From NCBI GenBank assembly GCA_030606485.1, contig JAUWGH010000001.1, positions 330,001 to 362,000 on the forward strand: a stretch of DNA of 32,000 bases, given 5' to 3'. Origin of the DNA: Promethearchaeota archaeon. Its GTDB lineage: Archaea; Asgardarchaeota; Lokiarchaeia; Sigyniarchaeales; SOKP01. The translations under genes were made by a program, and so were the position numbers. Below the pieces are notes generated by a model. It was not told where the DNA came from, did no database searches, and worked only from the letters and a program-made list of their open reading frames with translations. Numbering within the stretch: the first letter of the stretch is position 1; every line of letters starts with the position of its first letter. Positions 136-9,048 of this stretch are shown here, one piece after another.

Positions 136-957
136 TTATAGATTTAAGACATCTTTCATAGTATAGATACGATTTTTATTTTGTCTAAAAATATACTTCA
201 TTGCTTTTATTGCTCCTTCTGCAAAACAATCTCTACTGATCGCTTTATGTTGCAATTCAATGTATTCCCCTGGACCTGCATAGAGTACTGTATGATTTCC
301 TATAATATCGCCAGCTCGAATGCAATGTATTCCAATTTCGTTCTTTGCACCTTTCTTTCTTAAAGCTGGACCTTTTGGACGCCCATACTTAATAACATCA
401 TCCATTTTAACTCCAAGAGTATCGCAAATTATTTTTGCTATAGTTAAACTCGTCCCTGAATAATTATCTCGTTTTCTTTTATGATGACCTTCAATTATTT
501 CAATATCCCAATCGTTTAAATATTCAGTTAAAATTGATGCCATTTTGAATAAAATGTTTACACCCGTTGCCATATTAGGCGAAATCACTGCTGGAGCCTT
601 CTTTGTTTTTACAAGCTTTTCGAATTCATCGAGAAAATCTTGGGTCATTGCTGTTGTTCCAATTACGCATTTAATTCCGTTTTCAACACAGATTTTGCAA
701 TTTTTTTCTGTTGCTTTTGCCACAGTAAAATCTACGGCGACATCTGGTTTAGTTTCGTCTATAACTTTTTGAAGATAATTAACATCACTGATTTTGATTT
801 TATTCCTATCTTTTACGGCTAGGAGCCCTCCTAATTCTTCGCCGATGTTATTTACATCGCAAGCGGCAACTATTTCAATTTCATCGTCATTTAATGCTAA
901 TCCACTAATGAGTCTCCCCATTATACCCGTAGGACCTAAAATTAGTAATTTTATCAT
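136..957 (-). CDS. dapB: 4-hydroxy-tetrahydrodipicolinate reductase
   Basis: N-terminal Rossmann motif (ILGPTGIMG), VDFT, VIGTT, ISPNMATGVN, catalytic loop IIEGHHKRKRD-x-x-SGT, IRAGDIIGNHTV and FAEGA; lies directly downstream of dapA. Confidence 0.95.
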   Translation of the reverse strand: MIKLLILGPTGIMGRLISGLALNDDEIEIVAACDVNNIGEELGGLLAVKDRNKIKISDVNYLQKVIDETKPDVAVDFTVAKATEKNCKICVENGIKCVIGTTAMTQDFLDEFEKLVKTKKAPAVISPNMATGVNILFKMASILTEYLNDWDIEIIEGHHKRKRDNYSGTSLTIAKIICDTLGVKMDDVIKYGRPKGPALRKKGAKNEIGIHCIRAGDIIGNHTVLYAGPGEYIELQHKAISRDCFAEGAIKAMKYIFRQNKNRIYTMKDVLNL

Positions 958-983
958 TATATTCTACCTTAAATCAAGCTTTT

Positions 984-1886
984 CTAAATTAATTTTAAAT
1001 TTTTTAATACTATTTTAATTTTTTCTTGATTGTCTAATAACGGAGGCGTTAGTGGCAACCTCATCCTTTTATTCATTAAACCGAGCAATTCAGCCGCAAA
1101 TTTTACCGGACCTGGATTTGTTTCAACAAATAATACTTTAAAAAGATCATAATATAGTAATTGCTGTTCCCTTGCATTATTCCAGAGATCCCTTTCCATT
1201 GTTTCGTAAAATTCGACCATTTTAAACGGGATAATGTTCGATGCGACACTAATTACTCCCTTACCACCCAGAGCCATAATATGAAAAGTTAGTGAATCAT
1301 CTCCGCTAAGGACGATAAAATCATCAGGGCATAATTTGAAAATCTTAGTGATTTGGTCAATGTTTCCACTTGCGCATTTTATCCCCACAACATTATCATT
1401 CTTTTTTGCAATAGTAGCTACCGTTTCTGGATTAATATTCCTAACCGTACGTCCCGGAACATTATACACAATTATTGGAATCTTGACTTGCTCAGCAATT
1501 GTATTGTAATGATCTATAAGTGAATGTTGAACGGGTTTGTTATAATAAGGAACAACAATTAATGCTCCATCGGCTCCAGCTTCCTCTGCTCTGGTTGTTA
1601 GCGAGATTGCCTCGTTTGTGGAATTACTTCCCGTTCCAGCTAACACAAAGGGATCTTTCCCGGTTTTTCTTGCTTCATCAACGGAAATTTTTACCGCTTC
1701 AATATGTTCCTCATGAGAGAGAGTTGCCGCCTCTCCCGTTGTACCCATAGTTAAAATATTTGCACCGTTATTAACTTGAAATTTTATAAATTCCCGATAT
1801 TTCTCTTCATCCAGAGAAAAGTCTTCCTTAAATGGCGTAATTAAAGCGGTTATCACATTTTTAAGTTTTTCTAATTTATCAGACAT
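984..1886 (-). CDS. dapA: 4-hydroxy-tetrahydrodipicolinate synthase
   Basis: TALITPF, GTTGEAATLSHEE, AGTGSNST, VVPYYNKP, VYNVPGRT, Schiff-base Lys in GIKCASG, LSGDD, GVISVASN, ETNPGPVK, RLPL. Start placed at ATG 1886 (MSDKLEK) rather than 1916. Confidence 0.95.
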   Translation of the reverse strand: MSDKLEKLKNVITALITPFKEDFSLDEEKYREFIKFQVNNGANILTMGTTGEAATLSHEEHIEAVKISVDEARKTGKDPFVLAGTGSNSTNEAISLTTRAEEAGADGALIVVPYYNKPVQHSLIDHYNTIAEQVKIPIIVYNVPGRTVRNINPETVATIAKKNDNVVGIKCASGNIDQITKIFKLCPDDFIVLSGDDSLTFHIMALGGKGVISVASNIIPFKMVEFYETMERDLWNNAREQQLLYYDLFKVLFVETNPGPVKFAAELLGLMNKRMRLPLTPPLLDNQEKIKIVLKNLKLI

Positions 1887-2141
1887 TGTAATCAAACTAT
1901 AACCAGTTAACATCATATAAAATTGGTTGAGAATAAGATATGTCCAATTTATTTAATAATCTTATGGAATATTCTATTAATAATAAGATAAAAATGAGTT
2001 AATTGTTCTTCTTGAAATCTAAACTCAAATGAAGCTATTTCTTCTTATTAGATAAATTAAATAAAAGAAATGATTAAATTTACCCTAATCTAATTAAAAA
2101 TAGTATTATTCATAATTATTATTTAAATAAATTTTATAAAA

Positions 2142-2438
2142 GTGGTGAAAAAAATACCAAAATTGATAATAAATATAGAAAAAGGATTTTCATTAATGCT
2201 AAATCAACACAGATGTCAAGGATGCGAAATTTGTGTTTCAGTTTGTCCTACAGGAATATTAGAAATGTCTGACCAATTGAATATGCGTGTAGCTTTTTTG
2301 CCAAAAGTGAAAGAGGGAAAGGAAAAATATTGTACTGCTTGTAAAAGATGTGAATATGCGTGTCCTATATGGGCAATATATATTGTACCAGAAATTGAGA
2401 ATGAAATTACAGTTAAAAAAGAGGAGGCAAAAATTTAG
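2142..2438 (+). CDS. 2x[4Fe-4S] ferredoxin-like delta subunit of 2-oxoacid:ferredoxin oxidoreductase
   Basis: Two CxxCxxCxxxCP motifs (CQGCEICVSVCP, CTACKRCEYACP); first gene of the alpha/beta/gamma cluster. GTG start uncertain. Confidence 0.85.
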   Translation: MVKKIPKLIINIEKGFSLMLNQHRCQGCEICVSVCPTGILEMSDQLNMRVAFLPKVKEGKEKYCTACKRCEYACPIWAIYIVPEIENEITVKKEEAKI

Positions 2439-2453
2439 AAAGGGTGATATTAT

Positions 2454-3632
2454 ATGAGTAATGTAAATGGTAAAAGATTCTTAAAACCTGGTAAGTATTT
2501 GATGATGGGCAATGTGGCTATGGCTGAAGGGGCTCTCTCGTCAGGTTTGAAATTTTTTGGGGGATATCCAATAACACCGAGTACAGAAGTAATCGAGCAT
2601 CTAGCAAAACGATTACCGGAAGTTGGAGGCTGTTGTATGCAAATGGAGGATGAACTAGCATCTATAAATGCAGTAATGGGTGCATCATTAGTTGGTGCTA
2701 AAGCAATGACTGCTACCTCAGGACCCGGTCTATCACTTATGACGGAAACTATTTCAATGGCAGCAAATATTGAAATTCCATTTGTTTTTTGCGATGTTCA
2801 ACGTTGTGGTCCGGGCACAGGATTTGTAACTGTTCCACATCATAACGATATAGGCTTAACCAGATTTGCTGGAAATGGAGAGTTTGAAGTAATAGCTTTT
2901 GCCCCTATGTCGTGCCAAGAATTATTTGATTTAACAATAACGGCGTTTAATTATGCGGAAACGTATAGATGTCCAATTTTCATTTTATCAGACGCTTATT
3001 TGGGACATATTCATGAAGTAGTAAATATACCTCCAAAAGAAGAAATTTTAAAAAGAGTTATTGATCGTACAATCCCAAAAGATACCAAGGGTGCAAAATT
3101 TACATATGAGGATATTAAAACTCATAAATTAACGATTCCAAAGCCTTATATCGTAGGAACTGAGTTCTGTCCTCCTTTAATCATTCATTTACCGCATAAC
3201 CAAGATGGTATACTAATGCCAGAAGAAAATTCATTAAGATTTATGAAAATTATGATTGATAAAATCAGAGATAATATAGATAAAATTAGCTTAACGGAAG
3301 AATATAAACTGGATGATGCAGAAATTATCATAATTTCATATGGTCTCCCCGTCCGGGCAAGTTATAGGGCTGTGGATTTAGCTCGCAAGAAAGGAATTAA
3401 AGTTGGAATTTTTAGGTTAATTACTGTATGGCCATTTCCAAAAGAAAAAGTTAAACAAGTCGTTGCTGGTGCTAAAGCTATAATTGTTCCGGAAATGAAT
3501 TATACTGGAGTGATTGCAGAACAAGTCGAACGAGTAACTGATCTTAATATTCCAGTTATTAAAGTACCTAAAGTAGCTACTTTACATCATCCAGATGATA
3601 TTTTAAAAGCGATTGAGGAGGTGGCGAAATAA
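2454..3632 (+). CDS. korA: 2-oxoacid:ferredoxin oxidoreductase alpha subunit (KorA-like)
   Basis: MGNVAMAEGA, GYPITPSTE, QMEDELAS, ATSGPGLSLM, DVQRCGPGTG, RLITVWPFP, VPEMN. GGTGA Shine-Dalgarno upstream. Substrate specificity cannot be read from sequence. Confidence 0.88.
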   Translation: MSNVNGKRFLKPGKYLMMGNVAMAEGALSSGLKFFGGYPITPSTEVIEHLAKRLPEVGGCCMQMEDELASINAVMGASLVGAKAMTATSGPGLSLMTETISMAANIEIPFVFCDVQRCGPGTGFVTVPHHNDIGLTRFAGNGEFEVIAFAPMSCQELFDLTITAFNYAETYRCPIFILSDAYLGHIHEVVNIPPKEEILKRVIDRTIPKDTKGAKFTYEDIKTHKLTIPKPYIVGTEFCPPLIIHLPHNQDGILMPEENSLRFMKIMIDKIRDNIDKISLTEEYKLDDAEIIIISYGLPVRASYRAVDLARKKGIKVGIFRLITVWPFPKEKVKQVVAGAKAIIVPEMNYTGVIAEQVERVTDLNIPVIKVPKVATLHHPDDILKAIEEVAK

Positions 3633-4541
3633 ATGTCTGATGATGTTAGATATCCAAGTGAAAAACCAGAACATCCATATTTTGATAGTTCCTTTTCAGG
3701 AATGCTTTTAGGAACCCTTGTTTCACGATTCTGTGGAGGTTGTGGATATGGTAGTATTGGACAATTATATACAAGAGTCTTTGAAGATGAAAAGTTAGAT
3801 CCTAAATTATATCCATTAGTTATTGGGATAGGGTGTTATAGTCAAATCTTTTTCTTAGTTCATAAAAATGCTCAAAAAATGCTAACACTTCATGGTAGAG
3901 CCCCAGCAGTCGCAACTGGAATGAAAATGGCAAACCCGAAAATGAAACCGATTATCTTCTCAGGAGATGGAGATTGTTTAGGAATAGGAGGGAACCACTT
4001 TATCCATTTATGTCGCAGAAACCTTGATTGCATACTCTTTATCTTTAATAATTCTATTTATGGAATGACCGGTGGTCAAGCAGCTCCGACAACTCTATAC
4101 GGAGCTATGAGCACAACTACCCCATATAAAATGTTTGAACCACGATCAGATGGTGTAGAACTTGCTTTAGCTGCGGGTGCAAGCTATGTAGCGCGCACAA
4201 CTGTTGCCCATCCTAGGACTCTAATGAAATACTTTAAAAAAGCATTAAAACACAAGGGGACTTCAGTAATTGAGGTAATAACTCCATGTGTTACGTATTT
4301 TGGGCGGAAAAATCTTGATAATCTGGGTTCTAAAGGAGAAAAAGGGGAAATTATGGATACTGGAGGGAAAATGTTTGAGTGGATTAAAAAAAATTCTATT
4401 CATATAAATCAAGCGAAATTCATGAGTAAAGAGGAGTTATTTAATAAATATATTATAGGAGAATTCCGCTATGACCCAAGCAAGTCTGAATATTCTGAAG
4501 AATATAAAAAAATTCAAAATATCGCAATGAAAGGTGACTAA
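3633..4541 (+). CDS. korB: 2-oxoacid:ferredoxin oxidoreductase beta subunit (TPP-binding, KorB-like)
   Basis: FCGGCG, GIGC, TLHGRA, TPP motif GDGD...NN, YGMTGGQAAPTT, EVITPCVTYF; starts immediately after the alpha stop codon. Confidence 0.9.
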   Translation: MSDDVRYPSEKPEHPYFDSSFSGMLLGTLVSRFCGGCGYGSIGQLYTRVFEDEKLDPKLYPLVIGIGCYSQIFFLVHKNAQKMLTLHGRAPAVATGMKMANPKMKPIIFSGDGDCLGIGGNHFIHLCRRNLDCILFIFNNSIYGMTGGQAAPTTLYGAMSTTTPYKMFEPRSDGVELALAAGASYVARTTVAHPRTLMKYFKKALKHKGTSVIEVITPCVTYFGRKNLDNLGSKGEKGEIMDTGGKMFEWIKKNSIHINQAKFMSKEELFNKYIIGEFRYDPSKSEYSEEYKKIQNIAMKGD

Positions 4542-4544
4542 AAA

Positions 4545-5144
4545 TTGAACCGATACGAAATTAGAATTGTCGGATATGGTGGGCAAGGTATAATTACTTT
4601 GAGTAAAATGATTGCATACGCAAGTGGCATCTGTGAAGAATTATTAGTAACTCAAACTGAAGCGTATGGGGCGCAAGCAAGAGGTGGAAGAAGCTGGGCT
4701 GAAGTTGTTATCGATTTAGATAGAGAATCCAAACAGATTGATTATCCTAAAGCGTTAAAACCTTATGATCTTCTTGTTATTCTTTCGGATGCTGCAACAA
4801 AAGAGGTTAAAAAGGAAGTAATTAAAAAAGAAGAAAATACAGGACTCCTCATTTGGGATTCATCCACCATATTAGGGAAATTTCGAGCAGCAAGTAAAAT
4901 GAAAAATCTTGGTTTACCAATCCAAAAAATGGCATTAGAAAAATTTGGAGACACCGTATACGGTAATACAATCTTATTTGGAATATTTACAGTTGTAACT
5001 AAGATCTTCTCCGAAGAATCTGCAATAGAAACTATAAAACAATTTGTTCCAAGTTCAACATTAGAAAAGAATATTGAAGCTTTTAAATTTGGAAAGCAAA
5101 AGGCTGAAGAGTTTTTAACTCAATTAAAGGAGGGAATGAGTTAA
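4545..5144 (+). CDS. 2-oxoacid:ferredoxin oxidoreductase gamma subunit
   Basis: EIRIVGYGGQGIIT, YGAQARGGRS, NTILFG, NIEAFKFG; TTG start with GGTGA upstream. Confidence 0.9.
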   Translation: MNRYEIRIVGYGGQGIITLSKMIAYASGICEELLVTQTEAYGAQARGGRSWAEVVIDLDRESKQIDYPKALKPYDLLVILSDAATKEVKKEVIKKEENTGLLIWDSSTILGKFRAASKMKNLGLPIQKMALEKFGDTVYGNTILFGIFTVVTKIFSEESAIETIKQFVPSSTLEKNIEAFKFGKQKAEEFLTQLKEGMS

Positions 5145-5145
5145 T

Positions 5146-6963
5146 ATGCAGTTCGAGAAAATCCAAAAAGGATGGAAAGAGTTAGAAGAAGAAATAATTA
5201 AAACAGGAAAATGTGTCTATTGCGGAGCTTGTAGTACGTTTTGTGAAAATATTAATTTCGATTTTGAAAAAGAAATTCCTATTGAGGATGGCTCTTGTAA
5301 AGATGTGAATACATGTAGGGATGGTTTCGGTGTCTGCTACAATTTATGCCCTAAAACCAATATTGAACAATATTCTGTCTGTAAAATGGATAAATGGACA
5401 TTTGGTAAGCAACACGATAAAATTCTTGGCCATTATAAAAAGATTTTATCAGTAAAACTCACAGATATTGCGCGAAAAAATCTACCATCAGAAACGGGAC
5501 CTATTACTGCATTGTTATCCACAGCAATGGAAGCGGGTTTAATTGATTGTGTAATAACGAATAAAAAAGATGATAATTTTCGATTCGTTCCTTTCATCGC
5601 AAAAAATAAACAAGAACTTTCTGACGGAATCGAATTTAAACCCTACCAAAGTCCTATCCTTTCAATAATAGGTAAGGCAATAAATCAAGAGTTTTCTGAT
5701 ATAGCCATTGTAGGTAATGGTTGCCAAATAGAAGCTCTAAGGAAAATGCAAAATCACCCTCGATTTGATTTTGAGGTTTTTGATTTAGTTTCTTTAGCAA
5801 TTGGGACATTTTGTTTCGGGACTTTCCACAATGAACAATTATCGGATTGTTTCAGTAAATATGGTATAAATCGTAGCGAAATATTAAACATTAAAACCGA
5901 CAAGAATAATTTTAAAATGGTCGTAACAACTAAATCTGGTAATAAAGAGATTCCTCTTAATTATCTATACGATAAATCTATACGAAATGCTTGTTTTTCT
6001 TGCTCAGATTATGTTTCTGAGTTTGCAGATATATCAGTTGGGAATGTGGGAAGCGAAGATGGATATAAAACCTTTATAATCAGGACTAAGAGAGGAAAGG
6101 AGGTTTTTAATCTAGCCATCGAAAATGGGCTCTTAGAGGCGAAACAACTTACGATAGATAACGAAGAATTAGTGTTAGATATAACTAGAAGTAGAACGGA
6201 TATAGTTAAAATTGATAAAGTTGTTGATCACTCTTCAGAAATAAAAAGCTTCCTCATAAAAAACGAAAGAATTGCCAAGGCATATAGACCTGGGATGTTC
6301 GTTATTTTATGGGTTTTAAACGCAGATTTCTTACCTATGTCAATCTCAAATGTTAATGGGAATGTAATTGAAATAACCGTACAAAAAATCGGCGAAGGGA
6401 CAGCTACACTATTTGGATTAAAGGAAGGCGATAGTATTGGAATCAGAGGTCCTTTTGGAAACACGTGGAATTGCGAAGACGCGTCAAATATTCTTATAGT
6501 TGGTGGTGGAATGGGAATTGCCGCACTTACTTCAGTTATTGAGTCTTTAAAGAAAAATAATAAAAATATATTTGCTGCAATTGGAGCTAAGGATAAATCC
6601 TCACTAATATTTGGTGATAGAATAACACTACAAATCCCTAATACACAATATGCAACTGATGATGGCTCAATTGGAAAAAAATGTTTTGTTACGGACATAA
6701 TCGAGGATATCATAGATAAAAACAACATAGATTTAATACTCACTTGTGGTCCCGAAATTATGATGAAACAAGTTTTAGAAATTGCTGAATTAAAGAAAAT
6801 TAATATTCAAGCATCTTTGGAAAGAAAAATGAAGTGTGGGGTTGGTCTGTGCGGTTCATGCTGTATTGGGGAAGAAAATAATGTTCCAGTGTGTAAAGAT
6901 GGTCCCATATTCGATTCGACCCAATTGAGAAAATTCTCTAAATTTGGAACTTATTCCAAATAA
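5146..6963 (+). CDS. Fusion: FrhB/FpoF-like (F420 hydrogenase/dehydrogenase beta family) domain + PyrK/NfnA-like FAD/NAD(P)-binding [2Fe-2S] domain
   Basis: N-half: CVYCGACSTFC and CYNLCP Fe-S motifs, GPITALL...GLIDCV, IVGNGCQIEALRK, IGTFC, CFSCSDYVSEFADISVGNVGS. C-half (from about aa 350): PGMFVILW, PMSIS, RGPFGN, VGGGMGIAAL, TCGPEIMM, SLERKMKCGVGLCGSC...VCKDGPIF. Confidence 0.85.
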   Translation: MQFEKIQKGWKELEEEIIKTGKCVYCGACSTFCENINFDFEKEIPIEDGSCKDVNTCRDGFGVCYNLCPKTNIEQYSVCKMDKWTFGKQHDKILGHYKKILSVKLTDIARKNLPSETGPITALLSTAMEAGLIDCVITNKKDDNFRFVPFIAKNKQELSDGIEFKPYQSPILSIIGKAINQEFSDIAIVGNGCQIEALRKMQNHPRFDFEVFDLVSLAIGTFCFGTFHNEQLSDCFSKYGINRSEILNIKTDKNNFKMVVTTKSGNKEIPLNYLYDKSIRNACFSCSDYVSEFADISVGNVGSEDGYKTFIIRTKRGKEVFNLAIENGLLEAKQLTIDNEELVLDITRSRTDIVKIDKVVDHSSEIKSFLIKNERIAKAYRPGMFVILWVLNADFLPMSISNVNGNVIEITVQKIGEGTATLFGLKEGDSIGIRGPFGNTWNCEDASNILIVGGGMGIAALTSVIESLKKNNKNIFAAIGAKDKSSLIFGDRITLQIPNTQYATDDGSIGKKCFVTDIIEDIIDKNNIDLILTCGPEIMMKQVLEIAELKKINIQASLERKMKCGVGLCGSCCIGEENNVPVCKDGPIFDSTQLRKFSKFGTYSK

Positions 6964-6995
6964 TTTTTATATCTTTTCTCTTTTTTTTTAATATC

Positions 6996-7955
6996 TTGCC
7001 AAATGAAAATTTAAAAAAAGGTCTTTTTTATGGAATTGCTATGATTTTCTTAGTGGGACTCCAACCAATAATCGCAAATTCAAGACCTGCTGAACTTGAC
7101 TCGTATCTCTTTGCTGCAATGACTTGTATTATTGGATCCATCATATTTTTCCCTATTATAATGATAGAACGCAGAAATCTCAAGATTTCGAAAGAAAATG
7201 ACCCCGATAAAACAATCGAGATTGAGTCCCTTTTAAACGGCTGGAAAAAGCATAAACTCTTTTTAATATATCTTGGCATTAATTTTGGAGTTGCTCAAGT
7301 CTTATTTTTCATATCATATCTGCTTGCTGGAGCAATTAATGGTTCTCTTGCTCAAAAAACAACTGTGATTTTTGCTTTATTATTTGGATACATTATTAAT
7401 AAAGAATCCATTAAAAAATCTCAGGTATTATTTTCTTTTCTTTTATTATTTGGCGTAATTCTTGCTATTACGCAAGGTTCATTTAATTTACTCGAATTTA
7501 ATTTAGGTGTAATATTAATGCTAGTAACAACCGCAATTTGGATGCTAGGACACGCTATTACAAAAACAGTTTTAGATAAAAATGAAGCAACACCAATTCA
7601 ATTGGTATTTTCAAGAAATGCTTTAAGTGGAATCATCTTATTCAGCACATATTTTTTATTATTTCCTATAGAAAATTTTAATTTATTGTTTAACCCTATT
7701 AATATTTTTTATTTTCTAGCTATGGGAGTTGTTTATAGTGCTAATTTATTTTGTTGGTATAAAGTTCTCAAATATTTAGATGTATCTAAAGCATCAGTCC
7801 TCGCATCTCCCACTCCCATAGTCACCGCATTTTTTGCGATATTTCTTGGAGAGATTTTCACTGGTTTTCATCTAATCGGGTTATTCATAATTATCATATC
7901 CATATATTTTATTGTGAGAGAAAAGAAACGGAATAATATTGATGAAAAAAATTAG
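6996..7955 (+). CDS. EamA/DMT family transporter
   Basis: About 10 hydrophobic segments in two repeats; motifs such as GAINGSLAQKTTVIFALLFGYIINKE and SKASVLASPTPIVTAFFAIFLGE; TTG start. Confidence 0.88.
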   Translation: MPNENLKKGLFYGIAMIFLVGLQPIIANSRPAELDSYLFAAMTCIIGSIIFFPIIMIERRNLKISKENDPDKTIEIESLLNGWKKHKLFLIYLGINFGVAQVLFFISYLLAGAINGSLAQKTTVIFALLFGYIINKESIKKSQVLFSFLLLFGVILAITQGSFNLLEFNLGVILMLVTTAIWMLGHAITKTVLDKNEATPIQLVFSRNALSGIILFSTYFLLFPIENFNLLFNPINIFYFLAMGVVYSANLFCWYKVLKYLDVSKASVLASPTPIVTAFFAIFLGEIFTGFHLIGLFIIIISIYFIVREKKRNNIDEKN

Positions 7956-8049: not shown

Positions 8050-9048
8050 TTGAATGATATGGATTTTAAAGATAAGTTTATTGGAACTCTTTTAGGAACA
8101 GCAATAGGAGATACTTTAGGTGTTCCTTTTGAAGGACAAATAAGAGAACAAGTTATTAGGTATTTTGATGATTTTGATGAATTTATCGATAAGAATCACA
8201 ACATTTTCAGAACTTATAGCGATGATACTCAGCTCACAATACACACCGCAAAAGCAATAATAAGAGCTGGTGGCATTGAGGAAGAAATCTTAATAGATGA
8301 ATTTATTAAATGGTTAAATGATCCTCCCATCGGCCCAGGGTTTGGATGCTTATCAAGTATTCGAAAGTTAGCTGAAGGAATTCCATGGAAAAGTGCAGCT
8401 TCAAACTCTGGTGGGAATGGAACAGCGATGAGGATATCACCTATTGGTTTATTTTATTCTAATAATATTGAGCAGTTAAAGAAAGCAGCAAGTTTAAATA
8501 GTAATATTACTCATTCTCATCCTGCTGCAGAAGCTGGAGCAAGAGTTGTGGCTTCAAGCATCGCTTTTCTCCTATATAAAGATCCCAATAAGGGATTTTC
8601 GATTAATGAGTTTTTTCAAACTATAATTAACGTAATCTCCGATAAAAAAGATAGGATTTGGGAAGAGTTTATTGAAATTTTAAATGACTTACAGAATAAT
8701 TTGGATATGGATTTAATCGATGGACTAAAAAAATATGCTCAAATTGGCGTGAAACCTCCCTTCTACATTAAAAGTTTAGAAAATAAATGCTTTGTTCATC
8801 CTTATACTATCTCCACAGTTGTTTGTGCTCTTTTTATCTTTTTAAAAAATCTTGATTCTTTTAAGAAATGTATTTATATTTTACCAACTGCTGGAGGAGA
8901 TACAGATACATGTGGTGCTATTGGTGGATCCATTGCAGGTTCATATTTTGGTTTTAAAAATATACCTGAAAAATTAATTGCGTTAGTTCAAAACTCAAAA
9001 GAAATAATCCAATTAGGAAAGGAATTATACCAAGTTTCATTGCGCTAA
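8050..9048 (+). CDS. ADP-ribosylglycohydrolase (DraG/ARH family)
   Basis: GTLLGTAIGDTLG, SDDTQLT, GNGTAMRISP, THSHP, GGDTDTCGAIGGSIAG. Start is TTG 8050 or ATG 8059. Confidence 0.92.
   Translation: MNDMDFKDKFIGTLLGTAIGDTLGVPFEGQIREQVIRYFDDFDEFIDKNHNIFRTYSDDTQLTIHTAKAIIRAGGIEEEILIDEFIKWLNDPPIGPGFGCLSSIRKLAEGIPWKSAASNSGGNGTAMRISPIGLFYSNNIEQLKKAASLNSNITHSHPAAEAGARVVASSIAFLLYKDPNKGFSINEFFQTIINVISDKKDRIWEEFIEILNDLQNNLDMDLIDGLKKYAQIGVKPPFYIKSLENKCFVHPYTISTVVCALFIFLKNLDSFKKCIYILPTAGGDTDTCGAIGGSIAGSYFGFKNIPEKLIALVQNSKEIIQLGKELYQVSLR

What the first reader, a model, noticed from the sequence alone, without database searches (positions are those of the whole stretch)
5146..6963. FrhB/FpoF-like module fused to a PyrK/NfnA-like NAD(P) module as the fifth gene of a 2-oxoacid:ferredoxin oxidoreductase operon
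Seen: one uninterrupted 605-aa ORF starting 1 nt after the gamma-subunit stop. It carries N-terminal ferredoxin-type Cys motifs, the full FrhB-family motif set, and a complete FAD/NAD(P)/[2Fe-2S] domain. No pyrD is present in the window. Established: FrhB/FpoF-type domains are plug-in F420/FAD input modules (Frh, Fpo, Fdh, Fsr), although some family members such as HCAR and BciB use ferredoxin instead; PyrK/NfnA-type domains exchange electrons with NAD(P)H. Inference: a single-chain electron hub that passes electrons from 2-oxoacid oxidation to F420 and/or NAD(P)+, or acts as an F420H2:NAD(P)+ transhydrogenase. I do not know of a characterised enzyme with this architecture.
Basis: partly seen in the sequence, partly recalled or inferred. 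Interest (0 to 1): 0.78.

Follow-up and report, generated by a model that had tools for sequence, protein, structure and literature searches.

The report
F420/NAD(P) output module on Asgard KOR
An Asgard (Loki-type) archaeon ends its only 2-oxoglutarate-type ferredoxin oxidoreductase operon with a conserved, uncharacterised 605-residue protein that joins an F420-reductase module to an NAD(P)-binding flavoprotein, so this enzyme probably passes its electrons directly to F420 and NAD(P)+ rather than to free ferredoxin.

Summary
Window 5146-6963 (+) is one 605-aa ORF made of three parts. The N-terminus is a 2x[4Fe-4S] ferredoxin domain. The middle is an FrhB/FpoF-type F420-reductase core ([4Fe-4S] + FAD). 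The C-terminus is a PyrK/NfnA-type FAD/NAD(P)/[2Fe-2S] module. All 16 cluster cysteines are invariant.

The ORF starts 1 nt after the gamma gene of a delta-alpha-beta-gamma KOR/OOR-type OFOR, the only KOR-type OFOR in this genome.

- **Misassembly:** contigs from three independent studies bridge the domain joint. 76 Asgard loci carry the same fusion, and 53 of 55 with enough upstream DNA have the four OFOR genes directly upstream.
- **PyrD partner:** the genome has its own pyrD-pyrK pair on another contig.
- **Already characterised:** I found no solved structure or paper describing this architecture.

Supporting context: F420 biosynthesis genes and Mtd are present, and a canonical Fno is not found. 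The closest solved relatives of the N-half are the plug-in F420 reductases of the F420-reducing CODH and Fwd complexes (8RIU, 8RJA).

Best reading (about 0.6): a fifth subunit that wires 2-oxoglutarate oxidation to F420 and/or NAD(P)+. An Nfn-like confurcating mechanism is not excluded.

This is a new variant of a known kind. The scan's first readers noted the same fusion in two other genomes.

The parts
2142..2438 (+). OFOR delta subunit, 98 aa, 2x[4Fe-4S] ferredoxin (OorD/KorD-like)
   Evidence: Pfam Fer4_7 and Fer4; NCBIfam OorD is the best match. Two CxxCxxCxxxCP motifs are invariant in 52 orthologues.
2454..3632 (+). OFOR alpha subunit, 392 aa, KOR/OOR-type
   Evidence: POR_N + PFOR_II. 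NF006412 scores 401 bits against a cut-off of 411. Best PDB matches are 1YD7/4WBX, 8YS5 (2-oxoglutarate synthase) and 6N2N.
3633..4541 (+). OFOR beta subunit, 302 aa, TPP-binding
   Evidence: TPP_enzyme_C. The best NCBIfam match is 2-oxoglutarate:ferredoxin oxidoreductase beta, below its cut-off. Best PDB match is 8YS5_C.
4545..5144 (+). OFOR gamma subunit, 199 aa
   Evidence: Pfam POR; NF006323 is the best match. It lies directly upstream of the fusion in 65 of 65 loci with enough sequence.
5129..5133 (+). GGAGG inside the 3' end of gamma, 12 nt before the fusion ATG (possible ribosome-binding site, translational coupling)
   Evidence: Read directly from the sequence. Function is inferred.
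5146..6963 (+). 605-aa fusion protein (proposed fifth, epsilon-like subunit)
   Evidence: AF2 model: pLDDT 86.4, pTM 0.80.
5146..5415 (+). aa 1-90: ferredoxin domain, two [4Fe-4S] sites (C23/26/29/33 and C51/57/64/68)
   Evidence: Aligns with aa 10-83 of the 8RIU zeta subunit, whose ferredoxin domain anchors it to CODH. The Cys are invariant.
5416..6153 (+). aa 91-336: FrhB/FpoF-type F420-reductase core ([4Fe-4S] via C193/223/283/286, plus FAD)
   Evidence: Pfam FrhB_FdhB_N/C. Sequence matches to 8RIU_B, 8RJA_E, 9R51_B and 3ZFS_C. Foldseek TM 0.83, rmsd 2.4 A to 8RIU_B.
6154..6198 (+). aa 337-351: conserved helical linker between the two modules (T347 invariant; L344, D345, I346, R348, K350, T351 at 90% or more in the 33-sequence alignment)
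   Evidence: AF2 helix 337-348. Conservation. Contigs from three studies span this joint without indels.
6199..6960 (+). aa 352-605: PyrK/NfnA-type module. It has an FAD barrel (PG.F, PMS), an NAD(P) fold (GGGMGIA, TCGPE.MMK) and a [2Fe-2S] site (C564/569/572/583).
   Evidence: NF000796 scores 260 bits. PDB matches: 4YLF_A 3.7e-33, 5JCA_S, 5KSW_B, 1EP1_B. 39% identical to the genome's own PyrK.
6964..6990 (+). T-rich tract with a T9 run directly after the fusion stop. Likely archaeal terminator, i.e. the end of the operon.
   Evidence: Read directly from the sequence. Function is inferred.
6996..7955 (+). EamA-family transporter, recurrently near the cluster. Association is uncertain.
   Evidence: Pfam EamA. 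A homologue lies within the locus in 44 of 55 loci with at least 5 kb downstream. EamA genes also lie beside the two divergent clades.

Best explanation
The 605-aa protein is a dedicated fifth subunit, an electron-output module, of a KOR/OOR-type 2-oxoacid:ferredoxin oxidoreductase whose substrate is most probably 2-oxoglutarate.

Proposed path:
1. Oxidative decarboxylation at the TPP site of alpha/beta sends single electrons through the beta cluster and the two delta clusters.
2. The electrons enter the two [4Fe-4S] clusters of the fusion's N-terminal ferredoxin domain, then the FrhB-core [4Fe-4S].
3. From there they reach the FrhB FAD, which reduces F420 by hydride transfer.
4. Through the [2Fe-2S] cluster they also reach the PyrK-type FAD, which reduces NAD(P)+. 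NAD+ is the more likely substrate by family resemblance.

The complex would be a self-contained 2-oxoglutarate:F420 / NAD(P)+ oxidoreductase that bypasses free ferredoxin. Because both flavin sites are wired together, it could also equilibrate F420H2 with NAD(P)+.

Shown here: the domain content, the cofactor ligands, the conserved fusion and synteny, the separate pyrDK operon, and the presence of F420 biosynthesis genes.

Inferred: physical docking to the OFOR, the substrates, and the direction of electron flow.
For: - Architecture and ligands.
- Fold: AF2 model pLDDT 86, pTM 0.80. The N-half matches 8RIU_B (TM 0.83) and the C-half matches 5JCA_S and 5KSW_B (TM 0.83).
- Precedent: 8RIU_B and 8RJA_E are F420-reductase subunits with the same Fd + FrhB layout. 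They were shown biochemically to make CODH and Fwd reduce F420, and the zeta subunit is anchored through its N-terminal ferredoxin domain (PMC11493965).
- The closest stand-alone homologue of the N-half, P0129, lies next to Fpo/Nuo J/K-like genes, i.e. it is FpoF-like.
- Synteny: delta-alpha-beta-gamma-fusion in 53 of 55 loci, and gamma adjacent in 65 of 65. The same order holds in clades only 41% and 34% identical.
- Spacing: 1-nt spacer, GGAGG before the start, T-run after the stop.
- This is the only KOR-type OFOR in the genome; the other three are POR/VOR-type.
- cofG/H, cofD, cofE and Mtd are present. No canonical Fno was found.
- pyrD-pyrK lies elsewhere. No pyrD is in any of the 76 loci, 839 kb in total.
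- Chadwick et al. 2022 predicted FrhB paralogues beside PFOR in ANME-1 as an F420-reducing system (PMC9012536).
Against: - There is no biochemical or structural evidence that the protein binds the OFOR.
- F420 binding cannot be read from sequence. Some FrhB-family members (HCAR, BciB) use ferredoxin instead.
- The frhB and FpoF equivalog cut-offs are not reached.
- NAD_binding_1 is just under the Pfam cut-off, and NAD versus NADP specificity is unresolved.
- Why one enzyme would need two hydride acceptors of nearly equal potential is not explained by a simple branched wire.
- In 2 of 55 loci gamma + fusion, or beta + gamma + fusion, occur without the full OFOR set.
- The fusion was found in only 16 of 25 sampled genomes of the window's own family, and in none of 125 genomes from other families of the phylum. 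It is therefore not essential to Asgard KOR function.
Confidence: 0.6

Rival explanations
1. Nfn-like flavin-based electron confurcation or bifurcation hard-wired to the OFOR. The FrhB FAD would be the two-electron hub for F420/F420H2. One one-electron branch runs through the 4Fe-4S chain to or from the OFOR (about -500 mV). The other runs through the [2Fe-2S] cluster and the PyrK FAD to or from NAD(H). The net reaction would be 2-oxoglutarate + CoA + NADH + 2 F420 -> succinyl-CoA + CO2 + NAD+ + 2 F420H2, or the reverse.
For: - The C-half's best solved relatives are the NfnA small subunits (4YLF_A, 5JCA_S). In Nfn these carry exactly the high-potential branch (my knowledge of the Nfn mechanism).
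- The same genome pairs PyrK-family and FrhB modules twice more: an NfnA-like protein next to a Fd-FrhB-NfnB fusion, and FrhB + HydG-like in an HdrA/MvhD cluster.
- Confurcation would explain why two hydride-carrier sites are kept in one chain.
- By standard potentials from memory (F420 -340 mV, NAD -320 mV, 2-oxoglutarate couple about -500 mV), the confurcating direction is exergonic by roughly 30 kJ/mol.
Against: - No FrhB-family FAD is known to bifurcate.
- The potential gap between F420 and NAD is small.
- The reverse (anabolic) direction is endergonic at standard conditions.
Confidence: 0.15
2. The protein is a soluble, free-standing ferredoxin:F420/NAD(P)+ oxidoreductase or an F420H2:NAD(P)+ transhydrogenase. 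It is co-transcribed with the OFOR but not bound to it, comparable to soluble FpoF acting as an Fd:F420 oxidoreductase in Methanosarcina.
For: - No canonical Fno was found in a genome that makes and uses F420, so another F420/NAD(P) link is needed.
- gamma + fusion occurs without alpha and beta in rare loci.
- The N-terminal ferredoxin domain could accept electrons from any ferredoxin.
Against: - Tight synteny across clades down to 34% identity, with 0-3 nt spacers, is typical of subunits of one complex.
- The solved relatives with the same Fd + FrhB layout are bound subunits.
- The genome also has an NfnA + FrhB-NfnB candidate for the transhydrogenase role.
Confidence: 0.15
3. The FrhB-like half no longer uses F420. 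It serves only as a FAD/Fe-S adaptor, so the enzyme is a 2-oxoglutarate:NAD(P)+ oxidoreductase analogous to Azoarcus evansii KorABC or to phenylglyoxylate:NAD+ oxidoreductase PadEFGHI.
For: - OFORs with an added NAD(P)-reducing flavoprotein subunit are known. Ebenau-Jehle et al. 2003 is listed in the references of PMC8163825; the enzymology is from my own knowledge.
- PadE/G/I models give weak hits to the OFOR subunits.
- Some FrhB-family members do not use F420.
Against: - The N-half is much closer to proven F420 enzymes than to HCAR.
- All FrhB core motifs are kept across 52 orthologues.
- The organism makes F420.
Confidence: 0.1
4. The protein is an ordinary PyrK, the electron-transfer subunit of dihydroorotate dehydrogenase B, as the public annotation says.
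For: NF000796 (PyrK equivalog) is above its cut-off at 257 bits. The closest stand-alone relative, P0126, is a true pyrD-linked PyrK.
Against: - The genome has a canonical pyrD-pyrK pair at C6 whose PyrK scores higher (274 bits).
- No pyrD lies in any of 76 loci.
- Five other fusion-bearing genomes each have a pyrD that lies outside the fetched fusion loci.
- The protein carries an extra 350-aa F420-reductase half.
Confidence: 0.02
5. The fusion is an assembly or gene-calling artefact that joins two genes.
For: None found.
Against: - Contigs from three independent studies span nt 5240-6516, 5236-6737 and 5831-6300 with no indels.
- 76 loci from many assemblies and more than 120 database proteins of about 605 aa show the same fusion.
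- The linker is conserved.
Confidence: 0.01

Closest known systems
F420-reductase subunits of F420-reducing CODH (ACDS zeta, PDB 8RIU_B) and F420-reducing formylmethanofuran dehydrogenase (FwdI, 8RJA_E) of Ca. Ethanoperedens thermophilum (Lemaire et al. 2024, PMC11493965)
   Same: They share the N-terminal 2x[4Fe-4S] ferredoxin domain followed by an FrhB-type [4Fe-4S]/FAD core (E 1e-42 and 4e-38, TM 0.83 and 0.81). They are encoded with a normally ferredoxin-dependent, CO2-releasing oxidoreductase, to which they attach as an add-on subunit.
   Different: Here the host enzyme is an OFOR. The C-terminal dimerisation tail is replaced by a 255-aa PyrK/NfnA-type FAD/NAD(P)/[2Fe-2S] module. The lineage is Asgard. 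There is no biochemistry.
FrhB6 paralogues beside pyruvate:ferredoxin oxidoreductase genes in ANME-1 (Chadwick et al. 2022, PMC9012536)
   Same: A genomic association of an FrhB-family gene with an OFOR, read as a dedicated F420-reducing system.
   Different: The ANME-1 case involves a POR-type enzyme. No PyrK-like fusion is mentioned in the passages read. It is a different phylum and is also only a prediction.
NfnA / NfnI small subunit (4YLF_A, 5JCA_S) and PyrK of DHODH B (1EP1_B, 5KSW_B)
   Same: The C-half has the same fold (TM about 0.8) with FAD, NAD(P) and [2Fe-2S] motifs. It is 39% identical to the genome's own PyrK.
   Different: Its partner is neither NfnB nor PyrD. It is covalently joined to an F420-reductase module and encoded in an OFOR operon.
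OFOR-type enzymes with an added NAD(P)-reducing subunit: Azoarcus evansii 2-oxoglutarate:NADP+ oxidoreductase KorABC and phenylglyoxylate:NAD+ oxidoreductase PadEFGHI (from my own knowledge; the reference is listed in PMC8163825)
   Same: An OFOR core plus a flavoprotein subunit makes a pyridine nucleotide the acceptor.
   Different: In those bacterial enzymes the added subunit is not an FrhB-PyrK fusion, and no F420 module is involved.
FpoF/FqoF, the F420H2 input subunit of the Fpo/Fqo complex
   Same: The same Fd + FrhB layout. The NCBIfam FpoF model matches aa 16-326. The nearest stand-alone homologue, P0129, sits beside Fpo/Nuo-like genes.
   Different: The score is far below the FpoF cut-off (98 against 475 bits). 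There is no membrane complex nearby, and a PyrK module is added.

Membership tests
FrhB/FdhB/FpoF family (F420-reductase module) | FrhB_FdhB_N and FrhB_FdhB_C domains above the Pfam gathering scores | tested here: met
   43.8 bits (cut-off 22) and 123.6 bits (cut-off 23.3)
FrhB/FdhB/FpoF family (F420-reductase module) | Four Cys ligands of the core [4Fe-4S] and the conserved VG.PCQI..LRK, IG.FC and C..C.D...ADIS.G..GS motifs | tested here: met
   C193/223/283/286 are invariant. The motifs align with 8RIU_B, 8RJA_E, 9R51_B and 3ZFS_C.
FrhB/FdhB/FpoF family (F420-reductase module) | Fold of the solved F420 reductases | tested here: met
   Foldseek 8RIU_B TM 0.83, rmsd 2.4 A over 352 columns; 9R51_B TM 0.82
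FrhB/FdhB/FpoF family (F420-reductase module) | Binds and reduces or oxidises coenzyme F420 | not testable with these tools
   Indirect only: F420 biosynthesis genes are present, and the protein is closer to F420 enzymes than to HCAR.
FrhB proper / FpoF proper (NCBIfam equivalogs TIGR03289, NF040616) | Score above the equivalog cut-off | tested here: not met
   150.7 against 331.5 bits, and 97.8 against 475 bits. No hydrogenase or Fpo genes are adjacent.
PyrK (DHODH B electron-transfer subunit) | Sequence model NF000796 above cut-off, and [2Fe-2S] CX4CX2CXnC ligands | tested here: met
   257 bits against 224. C564/569/572/583 are invariant.
PyrK (DHODH B electron-transfer subunit) | Partnered with, typically encoded next to, PyrD | tested here: not met
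   pyrD is at C6 with its own pyrK. No pyrD is in any of 76 fusion loci.
NfnA (small subunit of NADH-dependent Fd:NADP+ oxidoreductase) | NF004862-type model above cut-off and an adjacent NfnB (Fer4_20 + Pyr_redox_2) | tested here: not met
   162 bits against a cut-off of 220. There is no NfnB in the operon. A true NfnA-like protein (367 bits) with an FrhB-NfnB partner lies at C8.
Four-subunit KOR/OOR-type 2-oxoacid:ferredoxin oxidoreductase (host enzyme) | delta (2x4Fe-4S), alpha (POR_N + PFOR_II), beta (TPP_enzyme_C) and gamma (POR) genes in one operon | tested here: met
   Closest solved relatives are 2-oxoglutarate enzymes (8YS5, 6N2N).
Four-subunit KOR/OOR-type 2-oxoacid:ferredoxin oxidoreductase (host enzyme) | Equivalog-level assignment to 2-oxoglutarate as substrate | tested here: inconclusive
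   alpha scores 401 against 411 bits; beta scores 199 against 364 bits. It is the only KOR-type OFOR among four in the genome.
Five-subunit OFOR complexes with a pyridine-nucleotide or F420 output subunit | The extra protein is physically part of the complex and transfers electrons from it | not testable with these tools
   Only genomic coupling is available: 53 of 55 loci syntenic and a 1-nt spacer.

The most novel reading that the evidence does not exclude
The five-gene unit encodes an Nfn-like, flavin-based electron-confurcating enzyme in which the OFOR replaces ferredoxin and F420 replaces NADP. Low-potential electrons from 2-oxoglutarate and higher-potential electrons from NADH would converge on the FrhB FAD to make two F420H2, or the reverse. 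This would be a new class of bifurcating enzyme with an FrhB-type flavin as the bifurcation site. It would give Loki-type Asgard archaea a direct route from amino-acid oxidation to the F420H2 needed by the methyl branch of their Wood-Ljungdahl pathway.
Probability: 0.15. Interest if true: 0.85.

Novelty: new variant of a known kind. Interest (0 to 1): 0.62.

Why it matters
Metabolic models of Asgard (Loki-type) archaea treat KOR as a plain ferredoxin-reducing enzyme (for example PMC8163825 and PMC12222021). They leave open how F420, needed by Mtd and Mer, is reduced in organisms without a canonical Fno.

If KOR is hard-wired to F420 and NAD(P), the electron budget of amino-acid fermentation changes. 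So does the split between H2/formate release and internal CO2 reduction, and with it the redox basis of the syntrophy invoked in eukaryogenesis models.

For enzymology, this would extend the recently demonstrated 'plug-in F420 reductase' principle (CODH, Fwd) to the OFOR family. It would be the first case where that module is fused to an NfnA/PyrK-type NAD(P) module, which makes it a candidate for a new confurcating architecture.

Public annotation as 'dihydroorotate dehydrogenase electron transfer subunit' is misleading for this whole protein family.

Tried and rejected
- **Complex prediction** (delta + gamma + fusion, each with an alignment of 52 rows): no verdict, score 0.01. This is no evidence either way.
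- **The look-up of sequencing runs**: no RNA holder was listed. Run X19 ('RNA? probably DNA') gave only a few short pieces, so nothing can be said about expression.
- **Model coordinates** are not exposed, so cluster-to-flavin distances in the AF2 model could not be measured.
- **The protein-atlas search**: only low-scoring bacterial AsrB-like clusters, no lead.
- **Literature searches** for the Asgard fusion found no description. PMC225024 (Azoarcus KorABC) is not held.
- **Kinship of MAGs labelled Thor-, Hod- and Hermodarchaeota** could not be obtained. Neighbour-gene identities of 51-80% to the window's genome do not settle it, so I do not claim the fusion spans several Asgard classes on the strength of NCBI labels.
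- **Closest stand-alone FrhB relative P0144**: its context was uninformative.
- **Considered and rejected:** PyrK of DHODH, misassembly, FrhB of a hydrogenase (no hydrogenase genes nearby) and FpoF of a membrane complex (no Fpo genes nearby).
Full report
**Observation.** Window 5146-6963 (+) is a single 605-aa ORF (P0001) with an ATG start and no internal stop. The preceding genes have these spacings:

| Gene | Coordinates | Length | Gap to next gene |
|---|---|---|---|
| delta | 2142-2438 | 98 aa | 15 nt |
| alpha | 2454-3632 | 392 aa | 0 nt |
| beta | 3633-4541 | 302 aa | 3 nt |
| gamma | 4545-5144 | 199 aa | 1 nt |

Pfam and NCBIfam identify them as a four-subunit 2-oxoacid:ferredoxin oxidoreductase. 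A GGAGG lies 12 nt before the fusion's ATG, inside gamma. A T-rich tract with a T9 run follows the fusion's stop. The window is 29% G+C.

**Anatomy of the fusion.**
- Pfam finds FrhB_FdhB_N (aa 115-175), FrhB_FdhB_C (185-335) and DHODB_Fe-S_bind (559-594) above their cut-offs. NAD_binding_1 (452-543) is just below its cut-off.
- NCBIfam's PyrK equivalog NF000796 scores 257 bits over aa 352-604 (cut-off 224). FpoF and frhB models match aa 16-326 and 94-363 well below their cut-offs.
- In alignments of 33 and 52 orthologues, reaching down to 40% identity, sixteen cysteines are invariant:
  - C23/26/29/33 and C51/57/64/68: two ferredoxin-type [4Fe-4S] sites.
  - C193/223/283/286: the FrhB-core [4Fe-4S].
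  - C564/569/572/583: the PyrK-type [2Fe-2S].
- The flavin and nucleotide motifs are also invariant (PG.F, PM, GP.G, GGG.G, TCGPE.MMK).
- An AF2 model built on 58 sequences is confident (pLDDT 86.4, pTM 0.80). It shows a short conserved helix (aa 337-348) joining the two halves.

**Closest solved relatives.**
- The N-half (aa 11-364) matches 8RIU_B (E 1e-42) and 8RJA_E (4e-38). FrhB of F420-reducing hydrogenases and Fsr follow at 1e-30 to 1e-21. The ferredoxin-dependent HCAR scores only 3e-9.
- Foldseek agrees: TM 0.83 and rmsd 2.4 A to 8RIU_B.
- Lemaire et al. 2024 (PMC11493965) showed that these two proteins are F420-reductase subunits bound to CODH and to formylmethanofuran dehydrogenase. 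They have an N-terminal two-cluster ferredoxin domain (aa 1-83), which anchors the zeta subunit to CODH, and an FrhB-like [4Fe-4S]/FAD domain. They make those normally ferredoxin-linked enzymes reduce F420.
- The C-half matches NfnA of T. maritima (4YLF_A, 3.7e-33), the NfnI small subunit (5JCA_S), PyrK (5KSW_B, 1EP1_B) and sulfhydrogenase gamma.
- No solved chain covers both halves.

**Is the fusion real?**
- Logan contigs from three independent metagenome studies (cold seep, marine sediment, hydrothermal vent) span the domain joint at about nt 6190: records cover 5240-6516, 5236-6737 and 5831-6300. They also span the gamma/fusion joint. No insertions or deletions were found.
- More than 120 database proteins of about 605 aa are 65-93% identical.
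- A scan of one genome per prokaryotic species returned 76 fusion loci. All are from Asgard MAGs, mostly named Promethearchaeota or Promethearchaeia. A few are labelled Thor-, Hod- or Hermodarchaeota by one study, and two 40-41% clade members include Ca. Sigynarchaeum.
- An exhaustive HMMER pass over 1.84 billion cluster representatives found full-length fusions in two clusters only (P0003 at 78%, P0123 at 41%), plus fragments. One fragment, P0124 (34%), is cut by a contig end and represents a third clade.
- All other hits are stand-alone PyrK-like or FrhB-like proteins, or PyrK-PyrD fusions.

**Synteny.**
- Of 55 loci with more than 3.1 kb upstream, 53 have delta, alpha, beta and gamma directly upstream in that order. 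Gamma is adjacent in 65 of 65.
- The two exceptions carry unrelated ORFs in place of alpha/delta or of alpha/beta/delta.
- The 41% and 34% clades show the same order.
- An EamA-family transporter gene lies near the cluster in all three clades, and within the locus in 44 of 55 loci.
- Other neighbours vary: dapA/dapB here; aconitase-like, HMGL-like, MTTB or mevalonate-pathway genes elsewhere.

**Is it the PyrD partner?** No.
- The genome (3.75 Mb, 13 contigs) has pyrD (305 aa) immediately followed by its own pyrK (287 aa) on contig C6. That PyrK scores 274 bits on NF000796.
- The fusion's C-half is 39% identical to that PyrK, 33% to a HydG/AsrB-like paralogue and 30% to an NfnA-like paralogue.
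- Its nearest stand-alone relative elsewhere is a genuine pyrD-linked PyrK. The module therefore descends from archaeal PyrK but has been recruited elsewhere.
- No pyrD occurs in any of the 76 loci. Five other fusion-bearing genomes each have a pyrD, which lies outside the fetched fusion loci.

**Cofactor context.**
- cofG and a cofH-like neighbour, cofD, cofE and the F420-dependent Mtd are present. A canonical F420H2:NADP+ oxidoreductase (npdG) was not found; the best hit is 26 bits against a cut-off of 150.
- The genome has 12 FrhB_C-containing ORFs. None is more than about 31% identical to the fusion's N-half.
- PyrK-family and FrhB modules are paired twice more: an NfnA-like gene followed by a 912-aa Fd-FrhB-NfnB fusion near Mtd, and FrhB + HydG-like genes at the end of an HdrA/MvhD cluster.
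- The nearest stand-alone relative of the N-half lies beside Fpo/Nuo J/K-like genes, i.e. it is FpoF-like.

**Host enzyme.** The alpha and beta subunits are closest to 2-oxoglutarate enzymes (8YS5, 6N2N, and 1YD7/4WBX) and to OorD/KorB-type models. They score just below (alpha) or well below (beta) the equivalog cut-offs. The genome's other three OFORs are POR/VOR-type. This is therefore the only KOR-type enzyme, and 2-oxoglutarate is the most probable substrate (inference).

**Mechanism.**
- The best-supported reading is that the fusion is a fifth subunit docking through its ferredoxin domain, as the 8RIU zeta subunit does. It would carry electrons from the OFOR clusters to an FrhB FAD (F420 site) and, through the [2Fe-2S] cluster, to a PyrK FAD (NAD(P) site).
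- Shown: the modules, the ligands and the genomic coupling. Inferred: the docking, the substrates and the direction.
- NAD(H) is favoured over NADP(H) only because PyrK and NfnA small subunits use NAD(H) (my knowledge).
- A plain branched wire does not explain why two acceptors of nearly equal potential are needed.
- The Nfn-like alternative does explain it. The FrhB FAD would act as a confurcating hub joining a low-potential branch from the OFOR and a higher-potential branch from NADH. With textbook potentials this is exergonic in the F420-reducing direction.
- A free-standing Fd:F420/NAD(P) oxidoreductase or transhydrogenase, and an F420-independent NAD(P)-only output subunit (as in Azoarcus KorABC or PadEFGHI), remain possible.

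**Distribution.** In 150 sampled genomes of the phylum, the fusion was found in 16 of 25 genomes of the window's own family and in none of 125 genomes from 26 other families. The Sigynarchaeum-type and P0124-type clades show it is older or has spread beyond that family. I could not verify the class labels of some MAGs.

**Novelty.**
- Plug-in F420 reductases are established for CODH and Fwd (2024). FrhB genes beside PFOR were noted in ANME-1 (PMC9012536). OFORs with NAD(P)-reducing subunits are known in bacteria.
- New here: the covalent union of an F420-reductase module with a PyrK/NfnA module, its strict coupling to a KOR-type OFOR, and its occurrence in Loki-type Asgard archaea.
- I found no paper describing it. 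Public records call it 'dihydroorotate dehydrogenase electron transfer subunit'.
- First readers of this scan noted the same fusion on two other genomes.

Noticed in passing
G000:C8:107917-111569 (L015:6918-10569, +): An NfnA-like gene (306 aa, NF004862 367 bits) is followed by a 912-aa protein joining Fer4 + FrhB_N/C + Fer4_20 + Pyr_redox_2 (NfnB/GltD-like). It lies about 2 kb from the F420-dependent Mtd. This is a candidate F420-linked Nfn-type enzyme.
   Followed up: partly
G000:C7:5664-14893 (L016, - strand): A cluster of an HdrA-like 1005-aa protein, two MvhD/FlpD proteins and polyferredoxins ends with FrhB (377 aa) + a HydG/AsrB-like PyrK-family protein (281 aa). This is a third FrhB/PyrK-family pairing in the same genome.
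   Followed up: partly
L007:1084-2502 (-), i.e. G000:C1 about 322.5-324.0 kb: A 473-aa FrhB_N/C protein has a C-terminal TrmB-type winged-helix domain (aa 366-422). This may be an F420/redox-sensing transcription factor.
   Followed up: no
whole genome G000: Twelve FrhB_C-containing ORFs occur in a 3.75-Mb genome, several with extra ferredoxin or unknown extensions. The complete F420 pathway genes tested (cofG/H, cofD, cofE) are present, but no canonical Fno (npdG) was found.
   Followed up: partly
window 6996-7955 (+); L029:1343-2242 (-); L117:904-1791 (-): An EamA-family transporter gene lies beside the OFOR-fusion cluster in all three divergent clades, and in 44 of 55 loci with at least 5 kb downstream. 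This suggests a transport step linked to the enzyme's substrate or product. The EamA genes of the divergent clades are not clearly orthologous.
   Followed up: partly
L040:1-3120 (+) and L064:2422-4368 (+): Two loci break the synteny. In L040 a 1040-aa open frame with a LAGLIDADG domain precedes gamma + fusion. In L064 a DUF4379/DUF6614 protein precedes beta + gamma + fusion. These may be mobile-element rearrangements. An earlier first-reader note (e1-5426001) reports a beta + gamma + fusion locus without alpha or delta on another genome.
   Followed up: partly
window 8050-9048 (+): A DraG-like ADP-ribosylglycohydrolase (332 aa, PF03747 189 bits) lies downstream of EamA. It is conserved only in the closest relatives (L059, L085).
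   Followed up: no
window 136-1916 (-): dapB and dapA lie divergently upstream of the OFOR operon. In other MAGs the upstream neighbours are aconitase-like or HMGL-like (2-oxoacid chain-elongation type) genes, so the upstream context is not conserved.
   Followed up: partly
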